DNA from: Labilithrix sp.
GTDB taxonomy: Bacteria; Myxococcota_A; Polyangia; Polyangiales; Polyangiaceae
Direction of reading: 5' to 3'
NCBI GenBank assembly: GCA_046351255.1
Contig: JAXLYU010000011.1
Location: forward strand, 243,617-275,616
Length of the DNA: 32,000 nt
Notes under the pieces: generated by a model
The model's input: only the letters and a program-made list of their open reading frames with translations
Database searches by the model: none
Told to the model about the DNA's origin: nothing
In this document: positions 607-13,413 of the stretch, piece by piece
Layout of the letters: every line of letters starts with the position of its first letter
How positions within the stretch are numbered: the first letter of the stretch is position 1
Translations under genes and position numbers: made by a program

Positions 607-3006
607 ATGACTCAGCTACGTGACGGCGTACCCACGCCGCCTTCGCCCATTGCTGTCCTCCCTCTCCGGTCCGGCGCGCTGTTTCCTGGCGCGACCCTGA
701 CCTTCGCCGTCGGCCGTGCGCGCTCCGTCGCGCTCGTTCGCACGCTGTATCCCGGCGACGTCGTCGTCACGCTCACGCAGAAGGATCCTCGTCCGCAGGA
801 CCTCGACCGTGAGGATGTCTACGCGTCTGGCACCTACGCTCGCGTCAAGACGATCACCCGCAAGGGCGACCGTGAGTACGAGCTCTCGCTCGAAGGTCTC
901 GGCCGCGCTCAGCTGGAGAGCTTCGTCACGAGCGACCCGTTCTTCAAGGCCGAGGTGAAGCACCTCGAGGACACGAACCGCGACACGGTCGAGGCCAAGG
1001 AGCTCGCTCGTGCCCTCGCGGTCGAGGTGGAGAGGATGGTGAGCGACGCCGGCGGCGCGCTCGGAGAGGCGGGCGACTTCGACGGCATCGACGCTGGCGC
1101 CTTCGCCGACCGCATCATCTCGTTGCTCGATCTCCCGCTCGAGCAAGAGGTCGAGCTCCTCGGCGTCGCCGACGTCCCGACCCGCATTCGCCTCCTCGTG
1201 AAGCGCATCGGCGAGGGCAAGGCCAAGGCCGAGGTCCGCGCCAAGATCGAGGGCGAGGTCAAGAAGGAGCTCGGCAAGAACCAGCGCGAGCACGTGCTTC
1301 GCGAGCACATGCGTGCCATCAAGAAGGAGCTCGGCGACGAGGGCGACAACGACCTCGACCTCCTGAGGAAGCGCCTCGACGACGCCAACCTCCCCGAGGA
1401 CGCTCGCAAGGTCGCGGACCGCGAGCTCCGCCGCCTCGAGTCGATGGGCGGCTCCGGCGCCGAGGTCCACGTCATCCGCAACTACCTCGAGCTCATCGCG
1501 GATCTGCCTTGGGACAAGCGCTCGGGCTCCGAGATCGACCTCGACAAGATCCAGGCGCAGCTCGAGTCCGACCACTACGGCCTCGCCGACATCAAGAAGC
1601 GGATCCTCGAGCACGTCGCGGTGCTCAAGCTCTCGGGCAACACCAAGGGCACCCTGCTCTGCTTCGTCGGACCGCCCGGCGTCGGCAAGACGTCGCTCGG
1701 TCAGTCGATCGCCGACGCCACCGGCCGCCCTTTCATCCGCGTCGCCCTCGGCGGCGTGCGCGACGAGGCGGAGATCCGCGGCCACCGCCGGACCTACGTC
1801 GGCGCGCTCGCGGGCCGCATCATCCACGCGCTTCGCAAGGCGAAGGTGAAGAACCCGGTCGTCCTCCTCGACGAGGTCGACAAGATGGGCAACTCCTGGG
1901 CGGGCTCGCCCGAGGCGGCCCTCCTCGAGGTGCTCGACCCCGAGCAGAACAAGACCTTCACGGACCACTACCTCGAGCTGCCGTTCGACCTGTCGGAGGT
2001 GATGTTCGTGTGCACCGCGAACACGCTCGAGACCCTCAGCGCGCCGCTCCGTGACCGCCTCGAGATCGTGGAGCTCTCGGGCTACACGACCGACGAGAAG
2101 GTGCACATCGCCAAGAGGCACCTCATCGAGAAGCGCACGAAGGAGCACGGCATCGGTGAAGGCAAGCTCACCGTCACCGACGACGCGCTCGCCGCCATCG
2201 TCCGCGACTACACGCGAGAGGCCGGCGTTCGCCAGCTCGATCGCGAGATCAAGAAGCTCTGTCGTGCCGCAGCGCTCGAGGTGGCGCGAGGCAAGTCGGG
2301 CGATGCCGTGACCATCACCGAGGACGAGCTCGCCAAGCATCTCGGCAAGCCCAAGTTCGACGGCGAGGTCGCGGAGCGCACCTCCATCGCCGGGGTCGCC
2401 ACCGGCATGGCGTGGACCCCCTTCGGCGGCTCGATCCTCTTCATCGAGACCTCGAAGATGCCGGGCAAGGGCCACGTCGAGATCACCGGCCAGCTCGGTG
2501 ACGTGATGAAGGAGTCGGCGCGAGCCGCCCTCACCTATGTCCGGAGCAACGCCGAGAAGCTCGGCATCAAGCCCGAGGCCGTGCAACACACCGACGTACA
2601 CATCCACGTGCCCGCCGGAGCCGTCCCGAAGGACGGTCCCTCCGCCGGCGTCACGATCTTCACCGCCCTCGTCAGTCTCTTCACTGGCCGGCGCGTTCGC
2701 TCCGACACGGCGATGACCGGCGAGGCCACCCTCCGAGGTCGCGTGCTGCCCGTCGGCGGCATCAAGGCCAAGGTGCTCGCCGCGCACCGCGCGGGTCTGA
2801 AGCACATCGTTCTTCCCTCCAAGAATGGACGTGATCTGGACGACGTGCCGGAGAACGTCCGTGCGGAGCTGACGATCGACCTGGTCGACGACATGAGTCA
2901 GGTCATCGAGGCGGCGCTGGAGAAAGAGCCGGCGCCGCTGGAGAGCACGGTCGTCCTCACGCCTGGCAAGAAGCCAGGCGGCGCGGACACGGCCGCCACG
3001 GCCTGA
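607..3006 (+). CDS. lon: ATP-dependent Lon protease (LonA type)
   Basis: 799-aa ORF with an AGGAGA Shine-Dalgarno at 594-599, 7 nt before the ATG at 607. It has an N-terminal Lon substrate-binding region, an AAA+ Walker A (GPPGVGKTS) and Walker B (VVLLDEVDK), and the C-terminal Lon proteolytic Ser-Lys dyad contexts [10 protein letters not shown] and [14 protein letters not shown]. Confidence 0.97.
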
Positions 3007-6494: not shown

Positions 6495-7295
6495 TCAGCG
6501 GCCGGCCGTGATCGTGGCGATGACGCCGTAGTGGTCGCTCGGGAAGACGCCCTCGTGTGGCCGATTGAAGACGACCTGGCACTCGATCGGCTCGCCGCGC
6601 TGGGAGTCGTCGGGTCCGCGCACGAACACGTAGTCGATCCGGCGCTCGGGCTCGCGGAGCGGCTCCGCGAACGGGTTCGTCTTCGAGAACGTCGTCCCGG
6701 GTGTGCCGTCGCCCGCGAACTCGAACGAGTCGGCGTAGCACACGCACTCCCCGCCGAGGCCGGTGAGGCCACGCATGAAGCGGATCTCGTCCGCGTCGGG
6801 GCCCGCGTTGAAGTCGCCCACGACGACCGGCGGGAAGCCGGAGCCGAGCGGACAGAACGCCTCGATCGCGCCGGCGAGGGCGCGGACCTGGAGCTGCCGG
6901 ACGTGTCCGTGGTGGAGCTTCCAGTTGAGGTGCGTCGTGAAGAACGGCAGCGGCCCGAACGGGGCGTCGATGAGCGCGTAGAGGAGGATGCGCGACTCGT
7001 CCGTGCCGCCGTTCGGTAGCGCGACGCTCTCGGCCTTCACGATCGGCCATTTCGAGAGGATCGCGTTGCCGACCGGGTAGCCATGATTCGGCGACGACAT
7101 GGCCCACGCCACCTCGTAGCCGAGGCCGTCCGCGATCAGCCTGGCCTGATCGAAGCCCGGATAGCTCAGGACCTCCTGCAAGCCGATGACGTCGGGGTTC
7201 ACCGTCCTCATGCCCTCGCGAATCGCGACGAGGCGCTCCTCCCACGGGGCCGAGCGGTGCCAAATGTTGAGCGTTGCCGCCCGGAACGTCCGCAT
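6495..7295 (-). CDS. Endonuclease/exonuclease/phosphatase (EEP) family protein
   Basis: Starts at the ATG at 7295 (MRTFRAATLNIWH...). EEP motifs present: LNIW, VIGLQEV, GDFNAGPD, and the C-terminal PSDHYGV. The stop at 6495 lies only 8 nt upstream of the Omp85 start, so the two are probably co-transcribed. Confidence 0.85.
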   Translation of the reverse strand: MRTFRAATLNIWHRSAPWEERLVAIREGMRTVNPDVIGLQEVLSYPGFDQARLIADGLGYEVAWAMSSPNHGYPVGNAILSKWPIVKAESVALPNGGTDESRILLYALIDAPFGPLPFFTTHLNWKLHHGHVRQLQVRALAGAIEAFCPLGSGFPPVVVGDFNAGPDADEIRFMRGLTGLGGECVCYADSFEFAGDGTPGTTFSKTNPFAEPLREPERRIDYVFVRGPDDSQRGEPIECQVVFNRPHEGVFPSDHYGVIATITAGR

Positions 7296-7461
7296 CAGCC
7301 ACACAAGATACTGCGACGGCGGATCTCGGACACGCGAAGATTTCAGCGCTTTTCCACCTCCCACGAGATCGGCGCGGGCCGTGCTTTTTCAAGGCGAATC
7401 ATGGCCACGCGCGCGCCGCGCGTTCGCATTGAGCTCTTTTGCGGTCGCTCGAGCCGGCGAT

Positions 7462-7487
7462 CGTGATTGATCACGAATCGATCACGA
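7462..7487 (+). promoter_or_regulatory. Repeat cluster (candidate operator) upstream of the stand-alone globin
   Basis: GATCACGA occurs at 7469-7476 and again at 7480-7487, giving 11-bp phasing. CGTGAT (7462-7467) forms an inverted repeat with ATCACG (7470-7475). The site is about 43 nt upstream of the globin ATG, in the divergent EEP/globin intergenic region. Confidence 0.3.
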
Positions 7488-7529
7488 GCCGGTCCAGACT
7501 CGACGGGCGGATTACCGCATCTTCCTCGC

Positions 7530-7985
7530 ATGAGCCTCGACCCGACCCTCCTGCAAGAAAGTTTCGCCCTCGTCGCTGCCAAGGAGCTCGACCTCGCGTC
7601 GCGCTTCTACGAGATCCTCTTCGAGCGGTATCCGCAGACTCGCCCCATGTTCCGCCGCCGGCCCGAGGAGCAGGCGAAGATGCTCACGGCCGCGCTCGCC
7701 GCCGTCGTGGCGCACGTCGAGGACACGGCCTGGCTCGTGGCCACGCTGCCGCCGATGGGCGCCAAGCACGTCTCCTACGGCGTGACGAACGAGATGTACG
7801 ACTGGGTCGGCGAGTGCCTCATCGCCGCGCTCGAGGACGTGTGCGGGAAGGACTTCACGCCGGCCGTGAAGGCGACGTGGTTCGCCGCGTTCGGCGCGGT
7901 CGCTTCGCTCATGCAGAGCGGCGCCGCGAGCGTCACGCAGCCGAGCTCCGGCGCGGTCTCGCACCATCCAGCATCATCGACGTGA
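7530..7985 (+). CDS. Single-domain globin (3-on-3, flavohaemoglobin-like family)
   Basis: ATG at 7530 (MSLDPTLLQESFALV...). It aligns by eye with bacterial haemoglobin and flavohaemoglobin globin domains: Tyr-B10 context RFYEILFERYP, Gln-E7 context EEQAKML, and proximal His-F8 context MGAKHVSYGVTNEMYDWVGECLIAAL. Confidence 0.85.
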   Translation: MSLDPTLLQESFALVAAKELDLASRFYEILFERYPQTRPMFRRRPEEQAKMLTAALAAVVAHVEDTAWLVATLPPMGAKHVSYGVTNEMYDWVGECLIAALEDVCGKDFTPAVKATWFAAFGAVASLMQSGAASVTQPSSGAVSHHPASST

Positions 7986-10020
7986 TCGCGTCGAAGGCCC
8001 GCGACCACGCCTCCGCCACGGGCGGCGTCCAGACGTCGGGCCCCGCCGCCTCCGCGAGGGTCGCGAGGAGCGAGGCGCCCACGCGTGGATACATCTCGTC
8101 CGTGACGCCGTAGGCGACGTGCCGCGCCCCGAGCGCGGCGAGCGACGCGCGGAGCCAGGGAGCGTCCTCGAGGCGATCGATGATGGCGAGGAGCGTGTCG
8201 TTCATCATCTTGGCCTGCACGGGCGGGCTGTTCCGATGGAAGAGCGCGCGCAGATCCGGGTGCTCCGCGAAGAGCCGATCGTAGAAGCGCGTCGTGACCT
8301 CCGGGGCGCGCGTCACGATCTGCTCGAACGAGGAGCGCAGCGCGGCCACGTTCTCGACGAACGGAGCCGGCGCCTCCGCCACCACCGCCGCTTGCCGGAA
8401 GAGCGGCCCCGCCTCGCCGAGACGCCCGTCGCGTCCGAGCGCGGAGCCGAGACGGACCAGAATCCGCGCCTTGTCCGCCGCCGACGCGCTCCCCGCGAGC
8501 GGCAATGCATCGAGCGCCGCGCGATAGAGCGTGACCGCGTGCTCGAAGGCGGCGCGAGCCACCGCGTGGTCGCCCGCGAGCGTCGCGAAGCGAACCGCCT
8601 CGTCCGCGCGCTCCGCCGGCGCGCCGCGCAGGTAGTGATGCGCGAGCTCCTCCGCGTGCTCGTCCTTTGCTGCACCATACACGCTCTCGAGCGCGTCCCC
8701 GACCAGCGCATGACGCCGGGCGCGCTCGCCGAGCGAGAGGTGCGCATAGAGCGCGTCGCGGAGGACGCCGTGGACGAAGGCGAAGGTGTCGATGCGCTGG
8801 GCCACGCGTCGCACGATCCGGTGCTCGAGCGCCTCACCGACCGCGTCGAGCAGATCGGCGGCGTTCTTTCCCATCGCCTTCGCCACGACGACGAGCCGGA
8901 ACTCGGCGCCGACGACGGCCCCCATCGCGAGCACGGCCCGGGCCTCCTCTCCGAGGACGGCGAGCGTGTCGTCGACCGCGTCGCGGAGGGCGCGCGGGAG
9001 CCGCGCCGACTGGCTCCCCTGCCCCATCGCCTCCGTGAGGTGCACGAGATGCGAGAGGAAGAGCGGATTGCCGCCCGTCCACTCGCGGAGCGCAGCGACC
9101 GTCGCTGCGACCGGCGCCGCGCCCGTCTCGCGCTCGAAGAACGCGGCCACCTCCGCCGGCCCGAAGCCCTCGAGCGAGAGCGTCGTCGCGCCGGGAACGC
9201 TCGCGGCGCGCGCCGCCGCGACGATGACGAGCCGCTGTCCTCGGAGGCGCGGGACGAAGCCCTGGAGCAGCGCGAGGGACGCCTCGTCTGCGAGGTGGAG
9301 GTCGTCGATGAGGAGGACGAGCGGACGTGTGTGTGTGATCTCGGCGAGAAAGCGCATGCAGCCGTCGTGGAGGCGAAAGCGCGCATGCGCGTCGTCCCCG
9401 GCGGTGGCGGTGCCGATGAGCGGCGCCAGCTCGCTCGGCACGGCGCCCCCGACGGATCGCACGAGCTGCTCCCACGGCCAGAGCGCGGGGACGCCGTCGG
9501 CCTCGGAACAACGTGCATGATGCACCTCGAAGCCGCGCGCGGCGGCCACGCGTCCGAACCGCTCCAGCAGGAACGACTTGCCGATCCCGGCCTCGCCCGC
9601 GATGACGGCCGCCCGCCCGCCGTCGAGGAGCGACTCGAGCTGACGGAGCGGCGCCTCGCGGCCGATGAACTCGTCTTCCACGGGCGGCGCGGGCGGGGGC
9701 GCGAGCGAGTCGACCGGCACGAGCTCGCCCACGAAGCGAAAGCCGCGGCCGTGCATCGTCTTGATGAGGCGCTGCGCTTCGCCGTCGTCGCCCACCGCGC
9801 GCCGCACCTCCTTGACCGCGCGCGAGATGGCGGCGTCGCCCACGATCGTGCCTTCCCACACCGCGTCGAGGAGCTCCTGGCGCGTGACGAGACGGCCGCG
9901 GTGCTCGACGAGGAAGAGCAGCAGGTCGAAGACCTTCGGCTGCAGCGGCACGGCGACACCGGCGCGCGTCAGCTCGCGCTTCTTCGTGTCGAGGACGACC
10001 TGTTCGAATCGGTAGCGCAT
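7933..10020 (-). CDS. Transcriptional regulator: OmpR/PhoB-type winged helix, AAA/STAND ATPase, helical repeats and a C-terminal globin domain
   Basis: 695 aa. The N-terminus (MRYRFEQVVLDTKKRELTRAGVAVPLQPKVFDLLLFLVEHRGRLVTRQELLDAVW...HGRGFRF) is a Trans_reg_C-type wHTH. Next come Walker A (IAGEAGIGKSFL) and Walker B (LVLLIDDLHLAD). The last 140 aa or so are a globin: RFYDRLFAEHP, PVQAKMM, LGARHVAYGVTDEMYPRVGASLLATL. Its 3' end overlaps the convergent globin gene by 53 nt. Confidence 0.85.
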   Translation of the reverse strand: MRYRFEQVVLDTKKRELTRAGVAVPLQPKVFDLLLFLVEHRGRLVTRQELLDAVWEGTIVGDAAISRAVKEVRRAVGDDGEAQRLIKTMHGRGFRFVGELVPVDSLAPPPAPPVEDEFIGREAPLRQLESLLDGGRAAVIAGEAGIGKSFLLERFGRVAAARGFEVHHARCSEADGVPALWPWEQLVRSVGGAVPSELAPLIGTATAGDDAHARFRLHDGCMRFLAEITHTRPLVLLIDDLHLADEASLALLQGFVPRLRGQRLVIVAAARAASVPGATTLSLEGFGPAEVAAFFERETGAAPVAATVAALREWTGGNPLFLSHLVHLTEAMGQGSQSARLPRALRDAVDDTLAVLGEEARAVLAMGAVVGAEFRLVVVAKAMGKNAADLLDAVGEALEHRIVRRVAQRIDTFAFVHGVLRDALYAHLSLGERARRHALVGDALESVYGAAKDEHAEELAHHYLRGAPAERADEAVRFATLAGDHAVARAAFEHAVTLYRAALDALPLAGSASAADKARILVRLGSALGRDGRLGEAGPLFRQAAVVAEAPAPFVENVAALRSSFEQIVTRAPEVTTRFYDRLFAEHPDLRALFHRNSPPVQAKMMNDTLLAIIDRLEDAPWLRASLAALGARHVAYGVTDEMYPRVGASLLATLAEAAGPDVWTPPVAEAWSRAFDAITSMMLDGARPRRSSAA

Positions 10021-10038
10021 GCCCCCGGGCGACGGAGA

Positions 10039-10566
10039 CTAGCGGCGGCGGCGGCTGCGCGTCGGCTCGTTCCCGCAGCGCTCGTAGCAGCGCAGCGTCG
10101 ACGGTCCGGGGTAGGTCACGCTGGGTCGCTTCTGGCGGACGGACTGCACGCACGCGCCCTCGTTGCCGCGCTCCGCGTCGACGCCGAACTCCGTGAGCTG
10201 ACCGCCGCTGTCGAAGCGGATCGTGAGCGAGTTGCCCGCCCCGCACCCGCGGAGCGAGGTCAGCGCCTCCGAGAGGTCGCTCGCGAGCCGCTGCTCCTCC
10301 TGCGGCGTGACGCGCCCCTTCTGCGCGACGAAGCACTGGAGCGGACAGGCTTGCGGCGTCGCCGGAGCTGGTGCCGGCGCTGGCGCATCGCCCTCGGCGG
10401 GCTTCGCCGCCGTCGTCTTCGTGTCGGCCTTCGAGTCCGTGTCCCCCGACGCGCTGGCGGAGGCGGACGCGGACGACTCGTCGCTCGACGCCCGGACCTT
10501 CACCTCGCCGTCGGCGGCGCACGCAACGAGCACGACGGAAGCGACCAGAGCGGTGACGACCTTCAT
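10039..10566 (-). CDS. Hypothetical lipoprotein with a low-complexity linker and a Cys-containing C-terminal domain
   Basis: MKVVTALVASVVLVACAADG is a signal peptide with an LVAC lipobox. An acidic S/A/D/T-rich linker follows, then a roughly 100-aa region with 6 Cys. I recognise no family. Confidence 0.6.
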   Translation of the reverse strand: MKVVTALVASVVLVACAADGEVKVRASSDESSASASASASGDTDSKADTKTTAAKPAEGDAPAPAPAPATPQACPLQCFVAQKGRVTPQEEQRLASDLSEALTSLRGCGAGNSLTIRFDSGGQLTEFGVDAERGNEGACVQSVRQKRPSVTYPGPSTLRCYERCGNEPTRSRRRR

Positions 10567-10674
10567 GGGTTGATTGTACTACGCAACAGGTAGCTCGACC
10601 CTAGCAACGGCACGGCTTCGTCGTGAAAAACGGCGTGAACAGGCTCCACGCCCATGCTGGGCGCACCAAACGAA

Positions 10675-10705
10675 GAGGCCGGCGCCCTTTTCGAGCACCG
10701 GCCTC
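10675..10705 (-). terminator. Candidate terminator hairpin downstream of the pyrophosphatase gene
   Basis: 8-bp stem GAGGCCGG (10675-10682) / CCGGCCTC (10698-10705) with a 15-nt loop. On the minus strand it is followed by TTCGTTTGG. It lies 45-75 nt past the hppA stop. The U tract is weak. Confidence 0.35.
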
Positions 10706-10749
10706 CCGAGCACGCCGCGGCGCTTGGCCGGGCGCTGCGCGCTAGACGA

Positions 10750-13413
10750 TCAGGCTTCCGCCTTCTTCGCCGCGTTGCTCTCCGCGCTCTCGTTCGTGTT
10801 GATGCGCATGCCGTAGAAGCTGCGGTACACGAAGATCACCGAGGCGCCGAAGAAGACGGCCGCGAGGATCATGGGGAGCGTCTTGTCGCCGGCCTTCATC
10901 TGCTCCGCGAGCTCGACGGCGAGGAGGCCGAAGAGGGTCGTGAACTTGATGACCGGGTTGAGCGCGACGGACGACGTGTCCTTGAACGGGTCGCCGACGG
11001 TATCGCCGACGACGCTCGCGTCATGGAGCTCGGTGCCCTTCATCTTGAGCTCGACCTCGACGACCTTCTTCGCGTTGTCCCAGGCGCCGCCGGCGTTCGC
11101 CATGAAGAGCGCCTGGAAGAGACCGAAGAGAGCGATCGCGATGAGGTAGCCGATGAAGAAGAACGAGTCGTAGAAGGCAAACGCGAGGGTCGAGAAGAAG
11201 ATGACGAGGAAGATGTTGAACATCCCCTTCTGCGCGTAGATCGTGCAGATCTCGACGACCTTCTTCGAGTCCTCGGCAGACGCCTTCTCGACGCCCTCGA
11301 GCTTGATGTTGGCCTTGATGAACTCGACCGCGCGGTACGCGCCCGTCGTGACGGCCTGGGTGGACGCGCCCGTGAACCAGTAGATGACCGCGCCGCCGGC
11401 GATGAGGCCGAGCAAGAACGGGGGGTAGAGCAGCGAGATCTTGTCCGTGTTCTGCGAGAAGCCGTTCGTGAGCGTCACGATGATCGCGAAGATCATGGTG
11501 GTCGCGCCGACGACCGCGGTGCCGATGAGGACCGGCTTCGCCGTCGCCTTGAACGTGTTGCCCGCGCCGTCGTTCTCCTCGAGGGCGTGCTTCGCCTTCT
11601 CGAACTGAACGTCGAAGCCGAACTCCTTCTTGAGGACGTTCTTCACGTCCGGCACGTTCTCGATGAGCGAGAGCTCGTAGACCGACTGCGCGTTGTCCGT
11701 GACGGGACCGTACGAGTCGACCGCGATGGTGACCGGACCCATGCCGAGGAAGCCGAAGGCCACGAGGCCGAAGGCGAAGACGGCGGACGGGTCGAAGTTG
11801 CCGATCATCATGATCGAGCCGACGCCTTCCTTCGACACCATGTACGCGGTGCCCATGAGGAAGATGAGGACGATGCCCATCCAGTACGCGGAGTAGTTAC
11901 CCGCCGTGAGACCGGAGAGGATGTTGAGGGAGGCGCCGCCTTCGCGAGAAGACGTGACGACTTCCTTCACGTGGCCGGACTCGGTCGAGGTGAAGACCTT
12001 GATGAGCTCCGGGATGATGGCGCCGGCGGCCGTGCCGCAGGTGATGATGAGCGACAGCTTCCACCAGAGCGTCTGGTCGATGATGCCGATGCCGTGACCG
12101 ACGGTGAGGCCCGCCTGCTTCGCGGCGTCGAGCTCGGCCGGCGAGAGGCCGGGGATGAGCTGCTTGGAGACGATGAACGTGAGGGCGACCGAGACGACCG
12201 ACGTCAGGATGACGAGGATCGTGAGCGGCGACTCGAAGTTCATCTTGTCGGCGTTCTGGTGCTTCGACTTCGCCATGAAGTCGTTGATGAAGTACGAGAG
12301 CACCGACGCGATCACCATGACGATGCGCATCACGAAGATCCAGACGAGGAGCTGGACCTGGACCGTCTCGTTGTGGACGGCGAGGAGGATGAAGGAGATG
12401 AGCGCGACGCCCGTGACGCCGTAGGTCTCGAAGCCGTCGGCGGAGGGGCCGACCGAGTCGCCGGCGTTGTCGCCCGTGCAGTCGGCGATGACGCCGGGGT
12501 TACGCGCGTCGTCTTCCTTGATCTTGAAGGCGATCTTCATGAGGTCGGAGCCGATGTCCGCGATCTTCGTGAAGATGCCGCCCGCGATACGGAGGGCCGA
12601 GGCGCCGAGCGACTCGCCGATGGCGAAGCCGATGAAGCACGGACCCGCGTACTCGCCGGGGACGAAGAGAAGGATGCCGAGCATGAGGACGAGCTCGACG
12701 GAGATCAGGAGCATGCCGATCGACATGCCTGCCTTCAGCGGGATGGCGTAGCAGGGGAACGGCTTGCCACGGAGAGCGGCGAACGCGGTACGCGAGTTCG
12801 CGAACGTGTTCACGCGGATGCCGAACCAGGCGACCGCGCAGGAGCCGGCGATGCCGATGAGGCTGAAGACGAGGATGATGAGGACCTGCGGCGTCTTCCC
12901 TTCCGAGAAGTAGTGCTGCGCGACGCCGAAGTAGTAGACGATGATGGCGCCGATGAACGCCTCGAGGATCATGATGAACTTGATCTGCGTGACGAGGTAC
13001 GTCTTGCAGGTCTCGTAAATCAGCTCGCTGATCTCGAGCATCGACTTGTGAACCGGCAGGTTCTTGAGCTGGGAGTAGATGACCAGCGCGAACAACATGC
13101 CGGCGATCGCGACGCCGATGCCTCCCATGAGGAGGGTCGAGCCGGGCATGCCGCCCATGAACGTGGCGATGTGCGTGTCACCGAGCTTCGGGACGACGAG
13201 GCTCGCCTCTCCGCCGTGATGCACGACGGGGGGAGCTGCTCCGCCGCCGCCCGTCGCCTCGGAGCCGTGCTCCGCGACCTGGGCGAGACTGGGAATCGCA
13301 TAGACAAGAGTGATCAGCAGCGTACTGAGCTTCAGGAGCCAGTTCGCCGCGACCCGAGCGACGGGCAGGCGGCTTCGCCGCAGGTCGCTCGACACACCAG
13401 ATTGAGACAACAT
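10750..13413 (-). CDS. hppA: Membrane-integral H+/Na+-translocating pyrophosphatase
   Basis: 887-aa polytopic ORF with M-PPase signatures: DCTGDNAGDSVGPSADGFETYG, DSYGPVTDNA, ENDGAGNTFKATAKP, and GDTVGDPFKDTSSVALNPVIKF. GGAGAGGA lies about 10 nt upstream of the ATG at 13413. An N-terminal extension of about 85 aa, with an extra hydrophobic segment, precedes the canonical first helix. Confidence 0.92.
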   Translation of the reverse strand: MLSQSGVSSDLRRSRLPVARVAANWLLKLSTLLITLVYAIPSLAQVAEHGSEATGGGGAAPPVVHHGGEASLVVPKLGDTHIATFMGGMPGSTLLMGGIGVAIAGMLFALVIYSQLKNLPVHKSMLEISELIYETCKTYLVTQIKFIMILEAFIGAIIVYYFGVAQHYFSEGKTPQVLIILVFSLIGIAGSCAVAWFGIRVNTFANSRTAFAALRGKPFPCYAIPLKAGMSIGMLLISVELVLMLGILLFVPGEYAGPCFIGFAIGESLGASALRIAGGIFTKIADIGSDLMKIAFKIKEDDARNPGVIADCTGDNAGDSVGPSADGFETYGVTGVALISFILLAVHNETVQVQLLVWIFVMRIVMVIASVLSYFINDFMAKSKHQNADKMNFESPLTILVILTSVVSVALTFIVSKQLIPGLSPAELDAAKQAGLTVGHGIGIIDQTLWWKLSLIITCGTAAGAIIPELIKVFTSTESGHVKEVVTSSREGGASLNILSGLTAGNYSAYWMGIVLIFLMGTAYMVSKEGVGSIMMIGNFDPSAVFAFGLVAFGFLGMGPVTIAVDSYGPVTDNAQSVYELSLIENVPDVKNVLKKEFGFDVQFEKAKHALEENDGAGNTFKATAKPVLIGTAVVGATTMIFAIIVTLTNGFSQNTDKISLLYPPFLLGLIAGGAVIYWFTGASTQAVTTGAYRAVEFIKANIKLEGVEKASAEDSKKVVEICTIYAQKGMFNIFLVIFFSTLAFAFYDSFFFIGYLIAIALFGLFQALFMANAGGAWDNAKKVVEVELKMKGTELHDASVVGDTVGDPFKDTSSVALNPVIKFTTLFGLLAVELAEQMKAGDKTLPMILAAVFFGASVIFVYRSFYGMRINTNESAESNAAKKAEA

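What the first reader, a model, noticed from the sequence alone, without database searches (positions are those of the whole stretch)
7933..10020. Globin domain fused to the C-terminus of a winged-helix/STAND-ATPase regulator
The 695-aa protein combines three parts: an N-terminal OmpR/PhoB-type wHTH, a Walker A/B STAND-like NTPase with helical repeats, and a complete C-terminal globin. The globin keeps Tyr-B10 (RFYDRLF), Gln-E7 (VQAKMM) and proximal His-F8 (GARHVAYGV), so haem binding is plausible.

The classical globin-coupled sensors I know carry an N-terminal sensor-type globin linked to MCP, GGDEF or kinase outputs. Here a flavohaemoglobin-like globin sits at the C-terminus of a signal-transduction ATPase with a DNA-binding output. 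This suggests an O2/NO/CO- or redox-gated transcriptional switch of an architecture I do not recognise as characterised.
Basis: partly seen in the sequence, partly recalled or inferred. Interest (0 to 1): 0.65.

Follow-up and report, generated by a model that had tools for sequence, protein, structure and literature searches.

The report
Globin-sensing regulator paired with a globin gene
A soil-myxobacterium-type genome encodes a DNA-binding ATPase switch whose sensor end is a haemoglobin-like domain, and it almost always sits beside a small haemoglobin gene whose promoter carries a conserved repeat it probably binds: an undescribed, directly testable gas or haem-sensing circuit.

Summary
ORF 7933-10020 (-) encodes a 695-aa protein with an OmpR/PhoB-type winged helix, an AAA_16/STAND ATPase core, a short helical arm and a complete C-terminal globin of the flavohaemoglobin/VHb lineage. 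Tyr-B10, Phe-CD1, Gln-E7, His-F8 and Tyr-G5 are invariant across the family.

The family is real but rare. It has about 15 clusters at 50% identity among 1.8 billion representatives. Only 3 of 185,579 species genomes carry it, all Polyangiales/Polyangiaceae.

First, a stand-alone paralogous globin gene (7530-7985, +) converges on the regulator. A partner globin is adjacent in 13 of 15 informative loci, in three different arrangements. Second, all 10 distinct partner-globin promoters examined carry three tandem 11-bp GATCA(CGA) repeats (window 7469-7501). These are absent from 34 free-globin promoters and from about 710 kb of control DNA. A matrix built on seven sites picked them out in three blind loci.

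Best reading: a STAND transcription factor whose TPR sensor was replaced by a haem-globin, controlling the partner globin gene. Haem binding, the sensed signal and the sign of regulation are inferred, not shown. No description was found in the literature. It is a new variant of known kinds.

The parts
7933..10020 (-). Gene for the 695-aa wHTH / STAND-ATPase / globin regulator
   Evidence: ORF; Pfam and NCBIfam; family alignment A1; AF2 model and Foldseek
9712..10020 (-). OmpR/PhoB-type winged-helix DNA-binding domain (aa 1-103). There is no receiver domain and no BTAD.
   Evidence: Trans_reg_C 1.5e-16; PDB sequence hits to CadC 5ju7 and PhoB; Foldseek YycF DNA-binding domain. It is the most conserved domain (mean pairwise identity 0.65), and the recognition helix GDAAISRAVKEVRRAVGDDG is nearly invariant.
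9121..9672 (-). Nucleotide-binding domain (aa 117-300): Walker A G142-EAGIGK148-S and Walker B LLIDD240
   Evidence: AAA_16 2.6e-20; invariant G142, G145, I146, G147, K148, D240 and nearly invariant D239
8731..9120 (-). Helical and winged-helix subdomains of the STAND core (aa 301-430), with invariant TGGNPLF 315-321 and F415-x-H417
   Evidence: Invariant columns; Foldseek hits to 6mfv, MalT 8bob and Apaf-1
8380..8730 (-). Helical TPR-like arm (aa 431-547), shared with non-globin relatives
   Evidence: Weak TPR_12 hit; helices 430-547 in the model; BLASTP homology to the 1041-aa and 640-aa TPR relatives ends at residues 543-549
7951..8352 (-). C-terminal 3-on-3 globin domain (aa 557-690), joined by a low-confidence linker at 548-556. 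Residues: Y580 B10, F594 CD1, Q602 E7, H634 F8, Y644 G5, and an invariant EDAPWL 618-623.
   Evidence: Globin 2.7e-15; PDB 3wfw 4.7e-14 and 1vhb 2e-13; neuroglobin target TM-score 0.77-0.88; 44 of 132 columns invariant
7530..7985 (+). Partner gene: a stand-alone 151-aa single-domain globin, paralogous to the fused domain (43% identity). It is convergent with the regulator gene and the 3' ends overlap by 53 nt.
   Evidence: ORF; Globin 1.1e-14; BLASTP 6e-31 against the fused domain; haem-pocket residues invariant among partners; adjacency conserved
7469..7501 (+). Candidate operator: three tandem 11-bp repeats, GATCACGAATC | GATCACGAGCC | GGTCCAGACTC, starting 61 nt before the partner globin's ATG. 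An inverted half-site GATCGTGATT lies at 7459-7468.
   Evidence: Sequence; 1 site in the window against 0.06 expected; conserved in all partner-globin promoters; absent from controls; found blind in L087, L088 and L089
10039..10566 (-). 175-aa predicted lipoprotein gene that ends 18 nt before the regulator's start codon and is probably co-transcribed with it. It is conserved only in close relatives.
   Evidence: ORF; no Pfam hit; 69% identical gene in the same position in L084

Best explanation
This is a two-gene module. The 695-aa protein is a STAND-type (MalT/AfsR-like) signal-transduction ATPase with an N-terminal OmpR/PhoB-type winged-helix output. The distal TPR sensor of its relatives has been replaced by a haem-binding globin of the flavohaemoglobin/VHb lineage. 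The proposed mechanism has four steps. (1) The ligand or oxidation state of the globin haem sets the conformation of the C-terminal sensor. With a Tyr-B10/Gln-E7 pocket, the likeliest signals are O2 or NO, or the ferrous-oxy to ferric conversion that NO causes. (2) This relieves or imposes autoinhibition of the nucleotide-binding core, allowing nucleotide exchange and oligomerisation. (3) The oligomer places several winged helices in tandem on three 11-bp GATCA(CGA) repeats that overlap the -35 region of the partner globin promoter. (4) Transcription of the stand-alone globin, a probable NO-detoxifying or O2-handling haemoprotein, is switched, most likely activated. What is shown: the architecture; conservation of the catalytic and haem-pocket residues; the gene pairing; and the operator-like repeats and their exclusive association with the regulator. 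What is inferred: haem binding, the identity of the signal, binding of this protein to the repeats, and the sign of regulation.
For: Architecture and fold. The input and output domains are the most conserved parts (globin 0.62 and wHTH 0.65 mean pairwise identity, against 0.44-0.47 for the ATPase core). Walker A/B, the GxP-like TGGNPLF motif, His417 and the haem-pocket residues are invariant across 41-98% identity. Homology to the non-globin relatives (wHTH-AAA_16-TPR proteins of about 640 or 1040 aa) stops at residues 543-549, so the globin occupies the sensor position. Pairing: a 141-157-aa globin gene is adjacent in 13 of 15 informative loci, arranged convergent, downstream on the same strand, or upstream on the same strand, while the other neighbours differ. 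In the P0007 genome the orthologous globin lies 6 kb away. Partner globins of the main clade branch in the same order as their regulators. Operator: three 11-bp-period repeats occur in 7 of 7 promoters first examined, including the distal globin of L001. There are no ATCACGA matches in 34 free-globin promoters from genomes without the fusion. No PWM hit above 16 bits occurs in about 710 kb of non-family DNA. In the blind loci the top PWM hit always falls 76-104 nt upstream of the partner ATG on the correct strand: L087 23.1 against 2.5 for the next best, L088 36.8 against 9.0, L089 37.9 against 1.4. An 11-bp direct-repeat period is the known binding mode of PhoB/OmpR-family winged helices (established knowledge). 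Where the ATG lies at +61 to +63 there is no Shine-Dalgarno sequence; where it lies at +74 to +103 there is one. This fits a transcription start at a fixed distance from the array, with the third repeat over the -35 region.
Against: No experiment stands behind any functional step. Haem binding is inferred from residue conservation only. Glu-H23 of the flavohaemoglobin proximal triad is not conserved (reading). pTM is 0.39, so the model says nothing about how the globin contacts the ATPase core. The repeats could be the site of a different, unlinked transcription factor. Their first repeat is often part of a palindrome (cGTGATCACGa), which also suits dimeric regulators. The training promoters are related by descent: the window, L084 and L086 arrays are nearly identical, and L088 and L090 are the same sequence, so there are about 8 independent lineages. 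The controls come from MAGs, where absence of the regulator is not proven. No sigma-70 consensus promoter was found, so the position relative to the transcription start is an inference. L085 has a regulator with arrays but no adjacent globin. No motif was found upstream of the regulator's own transcription unit.
Confidence: 0.55

Rival explanations
1. Partner-docking model. The fused globin does not sense a gas itself. It is a docking surface that heterodimerises with the free partner globin, so the regulator reads the amount or state (apo/holo, oxy/ferric) of its own gene product as a feedback loop.
For: The two globins are paralogues (43% identity) kept side by side in nearly all loci, and they appear to co-diversify. 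Many single-domain bacterial globins such as VHb are dimers (established knowledge). This globin lineage readily forms multi-globin proteins (P0241 has 14 globin domains).
Against: The haem-pocket residues of the fused domain are invariant, which a pure docking module would not need. Co-diversification is equally explained by vertical inheritance of a regulator and its target. No interface prediction could be run. The NJ tree has no support values.
Confidence: 0.15
2. Haem-availability model. The fused globin is an apo/holo haem sensor, so the apoglobin gene is transcribed only when free haem is available, or the converse, matching apoprotein to cofactor supply.
For: A sensor derived from a paralogue of the regulated haemoprotein would have a matched haem affinity (inference). 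In L001 the orthologous globin lies beside a Haem_oxygenas_2-family gene and a B12/radical-SAM gene.
Against: The distal residues Tyr-B10 and Gln-E7, which tune ligand chemistry rather than haem affinity, are invariant in the fused domain. The haem-related neighbours occur in one locus only. No haem-biosynthesis or uptake genes occur in the window.
Confidence: 0.12
3. The regulator and the GATCA repeats are unrelated. The repeats bind another transcription factor, and the regulator controls distant genes. The adjacency reflects only the duplication history of the globin.
For: No direct binding data exist. The first repeat is often palindromic. L085 has a regulator without an adjacent globin.
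Against: The arrays occur only in loci that carry the fusion regulator. They follow the globin when it moved 6 kb away (L001). In L085 they stay next to the regulator even though the globin is absent. The adjacency survives three gene arrangements. The recognition helix is nearly invariant, like the repeats.
Confidence: 0.1
4. The architecture is an artefact (assembly chimera, or a read-through of two genes), or an Avs-like anti-phage STAND protein rather than a regulator.
For: Foldseek lists Avs3 and Avs5 among the STAND hits. High-GC genomes produce long spurious ORFs (seen in L024).
Against: The same uninterrupted architecture occurs in about 15 clusters from independent samples and sources (NCBI, JGI, Logan). 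Conservation runs through the junction. There is no PADLOC match at E<=0.01. The N-terminal domain is a DNA-binding wHTH, not a nuclease or other effector.
Confidence: 0.01

Closest known systems
MalT (E. coli) and other STAND transcription activators (GutR, LAL regulators)
   Same: Same logic and core. There is a P-loop STAND nucleotide-binding/oligomerisation module with a helical arm (Foldseek 8bob 3e-9, 6mfv 2e-11), one DNA-binding domain per protomer, a C-terminal sensor, and target promoters with several repeated boxes.
   Different: MalT's DNA-binding domain is a C-terminal LuxR-type HTH and its sensor is a helical-repeat domain that binds maltotriose. Here the DNA-binding domain is an N-terminal OmpR-type wHTH and the sensor is a globin.
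AfsR and large SARPs (Streptomyces)
   Same: Same order of parts: an N-terminal OmpR-type wHTH, then a STAND ATPase, then a C-terminal sensor. They bind direct repeats overlapping the -35 region (established knowledge). SARP proteins appear as distant hits (P0053, P0055).
   Different: SARPs are defined by a BTAD domain after the wHTH and carry a TPR sensor. Here there is only a linker of about 15 residues, no BTAD (no PF03704 hit), and a globin in place of most of the TPR.
Globin-coupled sensors (HemAT, EcDosC, AfGcHK)
   Same: A globin domain is used as the input of a signalling protein. The expected signals are O2, NO, CO or redox state.
   Different: In globin-coupled sensors the globin is N-terminal and of the sensor/protoglobin lineage, and the outputs are MCP, GGDEF, kinase and similar domains (reviewed in PMC7475203). 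Here the globin is C-terminal and of the flavohaemoglobin lineage (PF00042 57 bits; Protoglobin 13.7 bits, below cut-off). It feeds a STAND ATPase with a direct DNA-binding output.
NsrR-hmp and NssR-cgb regulator/globin gene pairs
   Same: A dedicated regulator is encoded next to, and controls, a NO-detoxifying globin gene, with an operator about 50 nt upstream of the ATG (A. baumannii NsrR example, PMC11836069).
   Different: Those sensors use an Fe-S cluster (NsrR, Rrf2 family) or are Crp/Fnr-type proteins. Here the presumed sensor is itself a globin paralogous to the regulated product.
HGbRL globin domain (PDB 3wfw; 'hemoglobin-like flavoprotein fused to Roadblock/LC7 domain')
   Same: It is the closest solved sequence relative of the fused globin (4.7e-14), and another flavohaemoglobin-lineage globin fused to a signalling-type domain.
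   Different: There the globin is N-terminal and the partner is a small Roadblock/LC7 domain. It has no ATPase and no DNA-binding domain.

Membership tests
STAND NTPase transcription regulators (MalT/AfsR/GutR type) | P-loop nucleotide-binding domain with Walker A and hhhhDD Walker B | tested here: met
   AAA_16 74 bits; GEAGIGKS 142-149 and LLIDD 236-240, with Walker A and D240 invariant and D239 nearly invariant
STAND NTPase transcription regulators (MalT/AfsR/GutR type) | Helical domain plus winged-helix domain following the NBD, with an overall STAND fold | tested here: met
   Foldseek best hits are 6mfv (annotated as a STAND protein with TPR), MalT, Avs3 and Apaf-1, E 2e-11 to 1e-8; invariant TGGNPLF and FxH417
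STAND NTPase transcription regulators (MalT/AfsR/GutR type) | C-terminal repeat-type (TPR/SUPR/WD40) sensor domain | tested here: not met
   Only a short arm (aa 431-547, sub-threshold TPR_12) remains. Residues 557-690 are a globin. It is therefore a variant of the family, not a standard member.
STAND NTPase transcription regulators (MalT/AfsR/GutR type) | Signal-dependent nucleotide exchange and oligomerisation | not testable with these tools
   Needs biochemistry (ATPase assays, SEC-MALS or cryo-EM with defined haem states)
SARP (Streptomyces antibiotic regulatory protein) family | Bacterial transcriptional activation domain (BTAD, PF03704) after the wHTH | tested here: not met
   No PF03704 hit at E<=0.1. 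Only about 15 low-confidence residues lie between the wHTH and the NBD.
Globin-coupled sensors (S-family) | N-terminal globin of the sensor/protoglobin lineage with a C-terminal transmitter | tested here: not met
   The globin is C-terminal. PF00042 scores 57.3 bits against Protoglobin PF11563 at 13.7 bits (cut-off 25). The best PDB relatives are VHb, Hmp and HGbRL.
Flavohaemoglobin (Hmp) | Globin fused to a C-terminal FAD/NAD(P)H reductase | tested here: not met
   Only profile positions 8-134 of the 399-position NF009805 model match. The score of 65.5 bits is far below the cut-off of 432. There is no reductase domain.
M/F-family 3-on-3 haem globins (domain level) | Globin fold with proximal His-F8, Phe-CD1 and a distal Tyr-B10/Gln-E7 | tested here: met
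   Pfam Globin above cut-off; residue assignment through the 1vhb alignment; invariance in 11 fused and 9 partner sequences; target TM-score 0.77-0.88 to neuroglobin
M/F-family 3-on-3 haem globins (domain level) | Binds haem b | not testable with these tools
   Needs UV-visible spectroscopy of the purified protein
OmpR/PhoB response regulators | N-terminal receiver domain with a phospho-acceptor Asp | tested here: not met
   The protein starts with the wHTH at residue 1. Only the C-terminal halves of the response-regulator models match.

The most novel reading that the evidence does not exclude
This would be the first STAND ATPase gated by a haem cofactor, forming a self-contained 'globin senses for globin' circuit. 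A duplicated copy of the regulated haemoprotein was captured as the sensor domain of its own transcription factor, so sensor and effector share ligand chemistry. The oligomerising ATPase turns haem ligation or redox state into cooperative occupation of a three-repeat operator.
Probability: 0.5. Interest if true: 0.72.

Novelty: new variant of a known kind. Interest (0 to 1): 0.62.

Why it matters
Bacterial haem-based gas sensors and STAND switches are both well studied, but they have not been seen joined. If the model holds, it adds a new input type to STAND regulators. It also adds a new output and a new topology to globin sensors: a C-terminal, flavohaemoglobin-lineage globin acting directly on DNA. 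It would be a clear example of a regulator recruiting a paralogue of its target gene's product as its sensor. The whole circuit (sensor, operator, target) is predicted from sequence and is small enough to reconstitute. That makes it a convenient system for asking how a haem signal is transmitted to an oligomerising ATPase, and possibly a compact O2/NO-responsive expression switch.

Tried and rejected
(1) An apparent TTCACG-N6-TTCACG repeat upstream of the 175-aa gene looked like an autoregulatory site. It is part of a terminator-like hairpin plus T-run (10652-10632, minus strand) just downstream of the H+-pyrophosphatase gene, so I dropped it.

(2) Long open frames around globins in L024, L029, L033 and L034 suggested more fusions. 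Inspection shows high-GC artefacts with ordinary stand-alone globins starting at M-[SP]-L-D.

(3) A sigma-70 consensus scan over 7300-10800 found nothing. The promoter geometry therefore rests on the spacing and Shine-Dalgarno argument only.

(4) PADLOC gave no defence-family match.

(5) Five literature searches and two reviews gave no prior description. The library lacks most subscription-journal papers, including the 2013 bacterial globin census, so a brief earlier mention cannot be excluded.

(6) The P0310 look-up gave no downstream genes, so it was uninformative.

(7) Several JGI loci returned gene tables but no DNA, so their promoters could not be scored.

(8) A heterodimer prediction for the fused and partner globins was not attempted, because the structure tool takes one chain only.

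(9) The NJ globin tree has no bootstrap values. I use it only as an indication.
Full report
**Observation**

The ORF at 7933-10020 (minus strand, 695 aa) exists as described. Pfam places three domains above their curated cut-offs: Trans_reg_C (residues 23-96, 60.6 bits), AAA_16 (117-267, 74 bits) and Globin (578-683, 57.3 bits). There is also a sub-threshold TPR_12 hit at 517-549.

NCBIfam's best model for the C-terminus is the globin part of NO-inducible flavohaemoprotein (4e-18), with no reductase part matched. The N-terminus matches only the DNA-binding halves of the CadC, HilA and PhoB models.

Against solved structures, the globin is closest to the HGbRL globin 3wfw (4.7e-14), Vitreoscilla haemoglobin 1vhb (2e-13), E. 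coli Hmp and neuroglobins. The printed alignment to 1vhb gives Y580=B10, F594=CD1, Q602=E7, H634=F8 and Y644=G5. The Protoglobin model, which represents the sensor lineage, scores only 13.7 bits against a cut-off of 25.

An AlphaFold2 model built on the family alignment has mean pLDDT 79.3 but pTM 0.39. The domains are therefore credible, but their mutual arrangement is not. Foldseek against the PDB returns:
- STAND proteins first: 6mfv 2e-11, MalT 8bob 3e-9, then Avs3 and Apaf-1.
- Neuroglobin for the C-terminal domain (target-normalised TM-score 0.77-0.88).
- The YycF DNA-binding domain for the N-terminus.

**A real but rare family**

In the 5.8-billion-protein collection, eleven clusters (P0001-P0011, 41-98% identity, 695-767 aa) have the same three Pfam domains. 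The next relatives are wHTH-AAA_16-TPR proteins of about 640 or 1040 aa.

An exhaustive HMMER search of 1.84 billion representatives with the arm-plus-globin segment adds P0248, P0252, P0265, P0275, P0310, P0332 and some truncated entries, all with the same domain order. This gives roughly 15 clusters at 50% identity.

Only three of 185,579 species-representative genomes carry the fusion. All three are Polyangiales/Polyangiaceae MAGs.

In the family alignment the following are invariant (D239 nearly so): Walker A (G142...GIGK148), D239/D240 of Walker B, TGGNPLF 315-321, F415-x-H417, all five haem-pocket residues, and an EDAPWL motif between the E and F helices. The wHTH and the globin are the two most conserved domains (mean pairwise identity 0.65 and 0.62, with 30% and 33% invariant columns). 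The ATPase core is less conserved (0.44-0.47).

BLASTP homology to the non-globin relatives P0012 and P0016 runs from residue 1 to residues 543-549 and then stops. The globin therefore sits where those proteins continue with their C-terminal sensor region.

**The partner globin**

It is a stand-alone gene on the plus strand (ORF 7467-7985; the start matching its homologues is the ATG at 7530, giving 151 aa). It converges on the regulator gene, and their 3' ends overlap by 53 nt. It is 43% identical to the fused domain and keeps the same pocket residues.

A stand-alone globin of 141-157 aa is adjacent to the fusion gene in these loci:
- P0005/L003: downstream, same strand.
- P0011, P0003, P0010, P0008, P0009/L004, P0002/L084, P0006/L086, L088 and L089: convergent.
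- L007 and P0275/L087: upstream, same strand.

Counting the window, that is 13 of 15 informative loci in three arrangements, and hardly any other neighbour is shared.

The two exceptions are P0007/L001 and P0004/L085. In L001 the orthologous globin (68% identical to the window's partner) lies 6 kb away. In L085 no globin is seen in the 0.9 kb that remain on the contig.

Stand-alone globins of the same lineage, with the same LEDAPW motif, are common in Myxococcota, including Minicystis, Sorangium, Sandaracinus and Kofleriaceae.

In a neighbour-joining tree the fused domains lie outside the cluster of free globins. The partners of the main clade form one clade whose branching order mirrors that of their regulators. 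This fits a single fusion event and joint inheritance of the pair. The tree has no support values.

**A conserved candidate operator**

Sixty-one nucleotides before the partner's ATG the window reads GATCACGAATC GATCACGAGCC GGTCCAGACTC (7469-7501). These are three GATCA-type repeats with an 11-bp period, preceded by an inverted half-site.

The same array is found upstream of the partner globin in L084, L086, L003, L004 and L007. It is also found upstream of the displaced globin in L001.

Controls:
- GATCACGANNNGATCA with up to one mismatch occurs once in the window, against 0.06 expected.
- None of 34 upstream regions of free globins from genomes without the fusion contains ATCACGA.
- A matrix built from the seven arrays gives no hit above 16 bits in about 710 kb of non-family loci. 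Its only other strong hits lie next to fusion genes (L084, 34.8 bits; L085, 31.0 and 23.4 bits).

Blind tests on loci fetched afterwards all succeeded:
- L087: the best hit scores 23.1 bits, against 2.5 for the runner-up, and lies 76 nt upstream of the partner ATG on the correct strand.
- L088: 36.8 against 9.0, about 104 nt upstream.
- L089: 37.9 against 1.4, about 95 nt upstream.
- L101: a short contig with a partner-type globin has a 31.1-bit site 107 nt upstream.

Three free globins on other contigs (L100, L110, L113) have none.

The wHTH recognition helix is almost invariant across the family, in line with a conserved site. Direct repeats at a 10-11 bp period are the usual target of PhoB/OmpR-type winged helices (established knowledge). 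Three repeats suit an oligomerising STAND protein.

Where the ATG lies at +61 to +63 from the first repeat (window, L084, L086) there is no Shine-Dalgarno sequence. Where it lies at +74 to +103 there is one. This fits a transcription start at a fixed distance from the array, with the third repeat over the -35 region, which is the position of activators such as PhoB and the SARPs. That last step is inference. A consensus sigma-70 scan found nothing.

**Mechanism**

The best-supported reading is a STAND transcription factor whose sensor is a haem-globin and whose main target is the paralogous single-domain globin gene.

What is shown:
- The architecture.
- Conservation of the nucleotide-binding and haem-pocket residues.
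- The gene pairing.
- The exclusive association of the repeats with the regulator.

What is inferred:
- The domain binds haem.
- The haem's ligand or oxidation state (O2 or NO, given the Tyr-B10/Gln-E7 pocket) gates the ATPase.
- This protein binds the repeats.
- It activates transcription.

Three rivals remain open: the fused globin docks the partner globin (feedback on the gene product); it senses haem availability; or the repeats belong to another factor. An artefact or an anti-phage role is excluded in practice.

**Comparison with known systems**

It works like MalT and AfsR (a STAND switch, repeated boxes, activation) and like a globin-coupled sensor (a globin as input), but it is a standard member of neither.
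- It lacks the repeat-type sensor of the STAND regulators.
- It lacks the BTAD of SARPs.
- It lacks the N-terminal sensor-lineage globin of globin-coupled sensors.
- It lacks the reductase of flavohaemoglobins.
- It lacks the receiver domain of response regulators.

Known regulators of bacterial globin genes sense NO through Fe-S clusters or other non-globin domains, for example NsrR next to the A. baumannii haemoglobin gene (PMC11836069). Reviews list flavohaemoglobin as the chimeric form of this globin lineage, and they list N-terminal sensor globins for signalling proteins (PMC7475203). No paper in the held library describes the present architecture. Public databases carry only automatic names such as 'DNA-binding wHTH protein/hemoglobin-like flavoprotein'.

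**Verdict**

The finding is a new variant of known kinds. It is of moderate to high interest, because a complete sensor-operator-target circuit is predicted and can be tested directly.

Noticed in passing
P0241 (2461 aa), P0242, P0243, P0246, P0247, P0249, P0253: These giant proteins are made of many tandem globin domains of the same lineage. P0241 has 14 Pfam Globin stretches and P0247 has 7, at up to 42% identity to the fused domain. Their source organisms and roles are unknown.
   Followed up: partly
P0353, P0361, P0375, P0378, P0384: Pfam-Globin-type (not protoglobin-type) globins sit at the N-terminus of signalling proteins: Globin-PAS-GAF, Globin-PAS-GAF-PAS-MCP, Globin-PAS, Globin-dCache and Globin-pentapeptide repeats. 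The flavohaemoglobin lineage has therefore been recruited as a sensor more than once.
   Followed up: partly
L085 3957-4140 (locus of P0004): This regulator has no adjacent globin, but two operator-like arrays lie directly after its stop codon. One, on the minus strand, points at the regulator's 3' end, as if a convergent globin had been lost. The other, on the plus strand, lies 108 nt before a lipoprotein-like ORF that has a Shine-Dalgarno sequence. The target may have changed here.
   Followed up: partly
window 7933-7985: The regulator and partner globin genes overlap tail to tail by 53 nt with no room for a terminator. Similar overlaps (4-68 nt) recur in P0003, P0008, L004, L084 and L086. 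Convergent transcription could add antisense interference between the two genes.
   Followed up: no
window 10039-10566 (-): A 175-aa predicted lipoprotein gene with no Pfam hit ends 18 nt before the regulator's start codon. It is 69% identical to the gene in the same position in L084. Genes of similar size (187 aa, and 235 aa in L085) precede the regulator in the P0003 and P0004/L085 loci, but their sequences were not compared. It is probably co-transcribed with the regulator.
   Followed up: partly
L001 10219-16684: In the one genome where the partner globin is displaced, the 6 kb in between encode an ECF sigma factor with a putative anti-sigma, a Ser/Thr kinase, a B12-binding radical-SAM enzyme, a Haem_oxygenas_2-family protein and a metallo-beta-lactamase-fold protein. 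This may be an insertion of a haem- or redox-related cassette.
   Followed up: no
L033 465-1583: A Polyangiaceae MAG contig carries two stand-alone globins head to head (divergent). A Ser/Thr-kinase-like ORF with a C-terminal cyclic-nucleotide-binding-like region lies next to them. No GATCA array is present there.
   Followed up: no
window 10632-10652 (-): A terminator-like hairpin with a T-run lies just downstream of the H+-translocating pyrophosphatase gene (10750-13413, minus strand). It marks the upstream limit of the lipoprotein-regulator transcription unit.
   Followed up: partly
window 607-3006, 6495-7364, 15950-18088, 18109-19224: The other neighbours are Lon protease, an endonuclease/exonuclease/phosphatase-family protein (also present in the P0003 locus), an RCC1-repeat protein and a LigB-type dioxygenase. 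None has an evident link to O2 or NO metabolism.
   Followed up: partly
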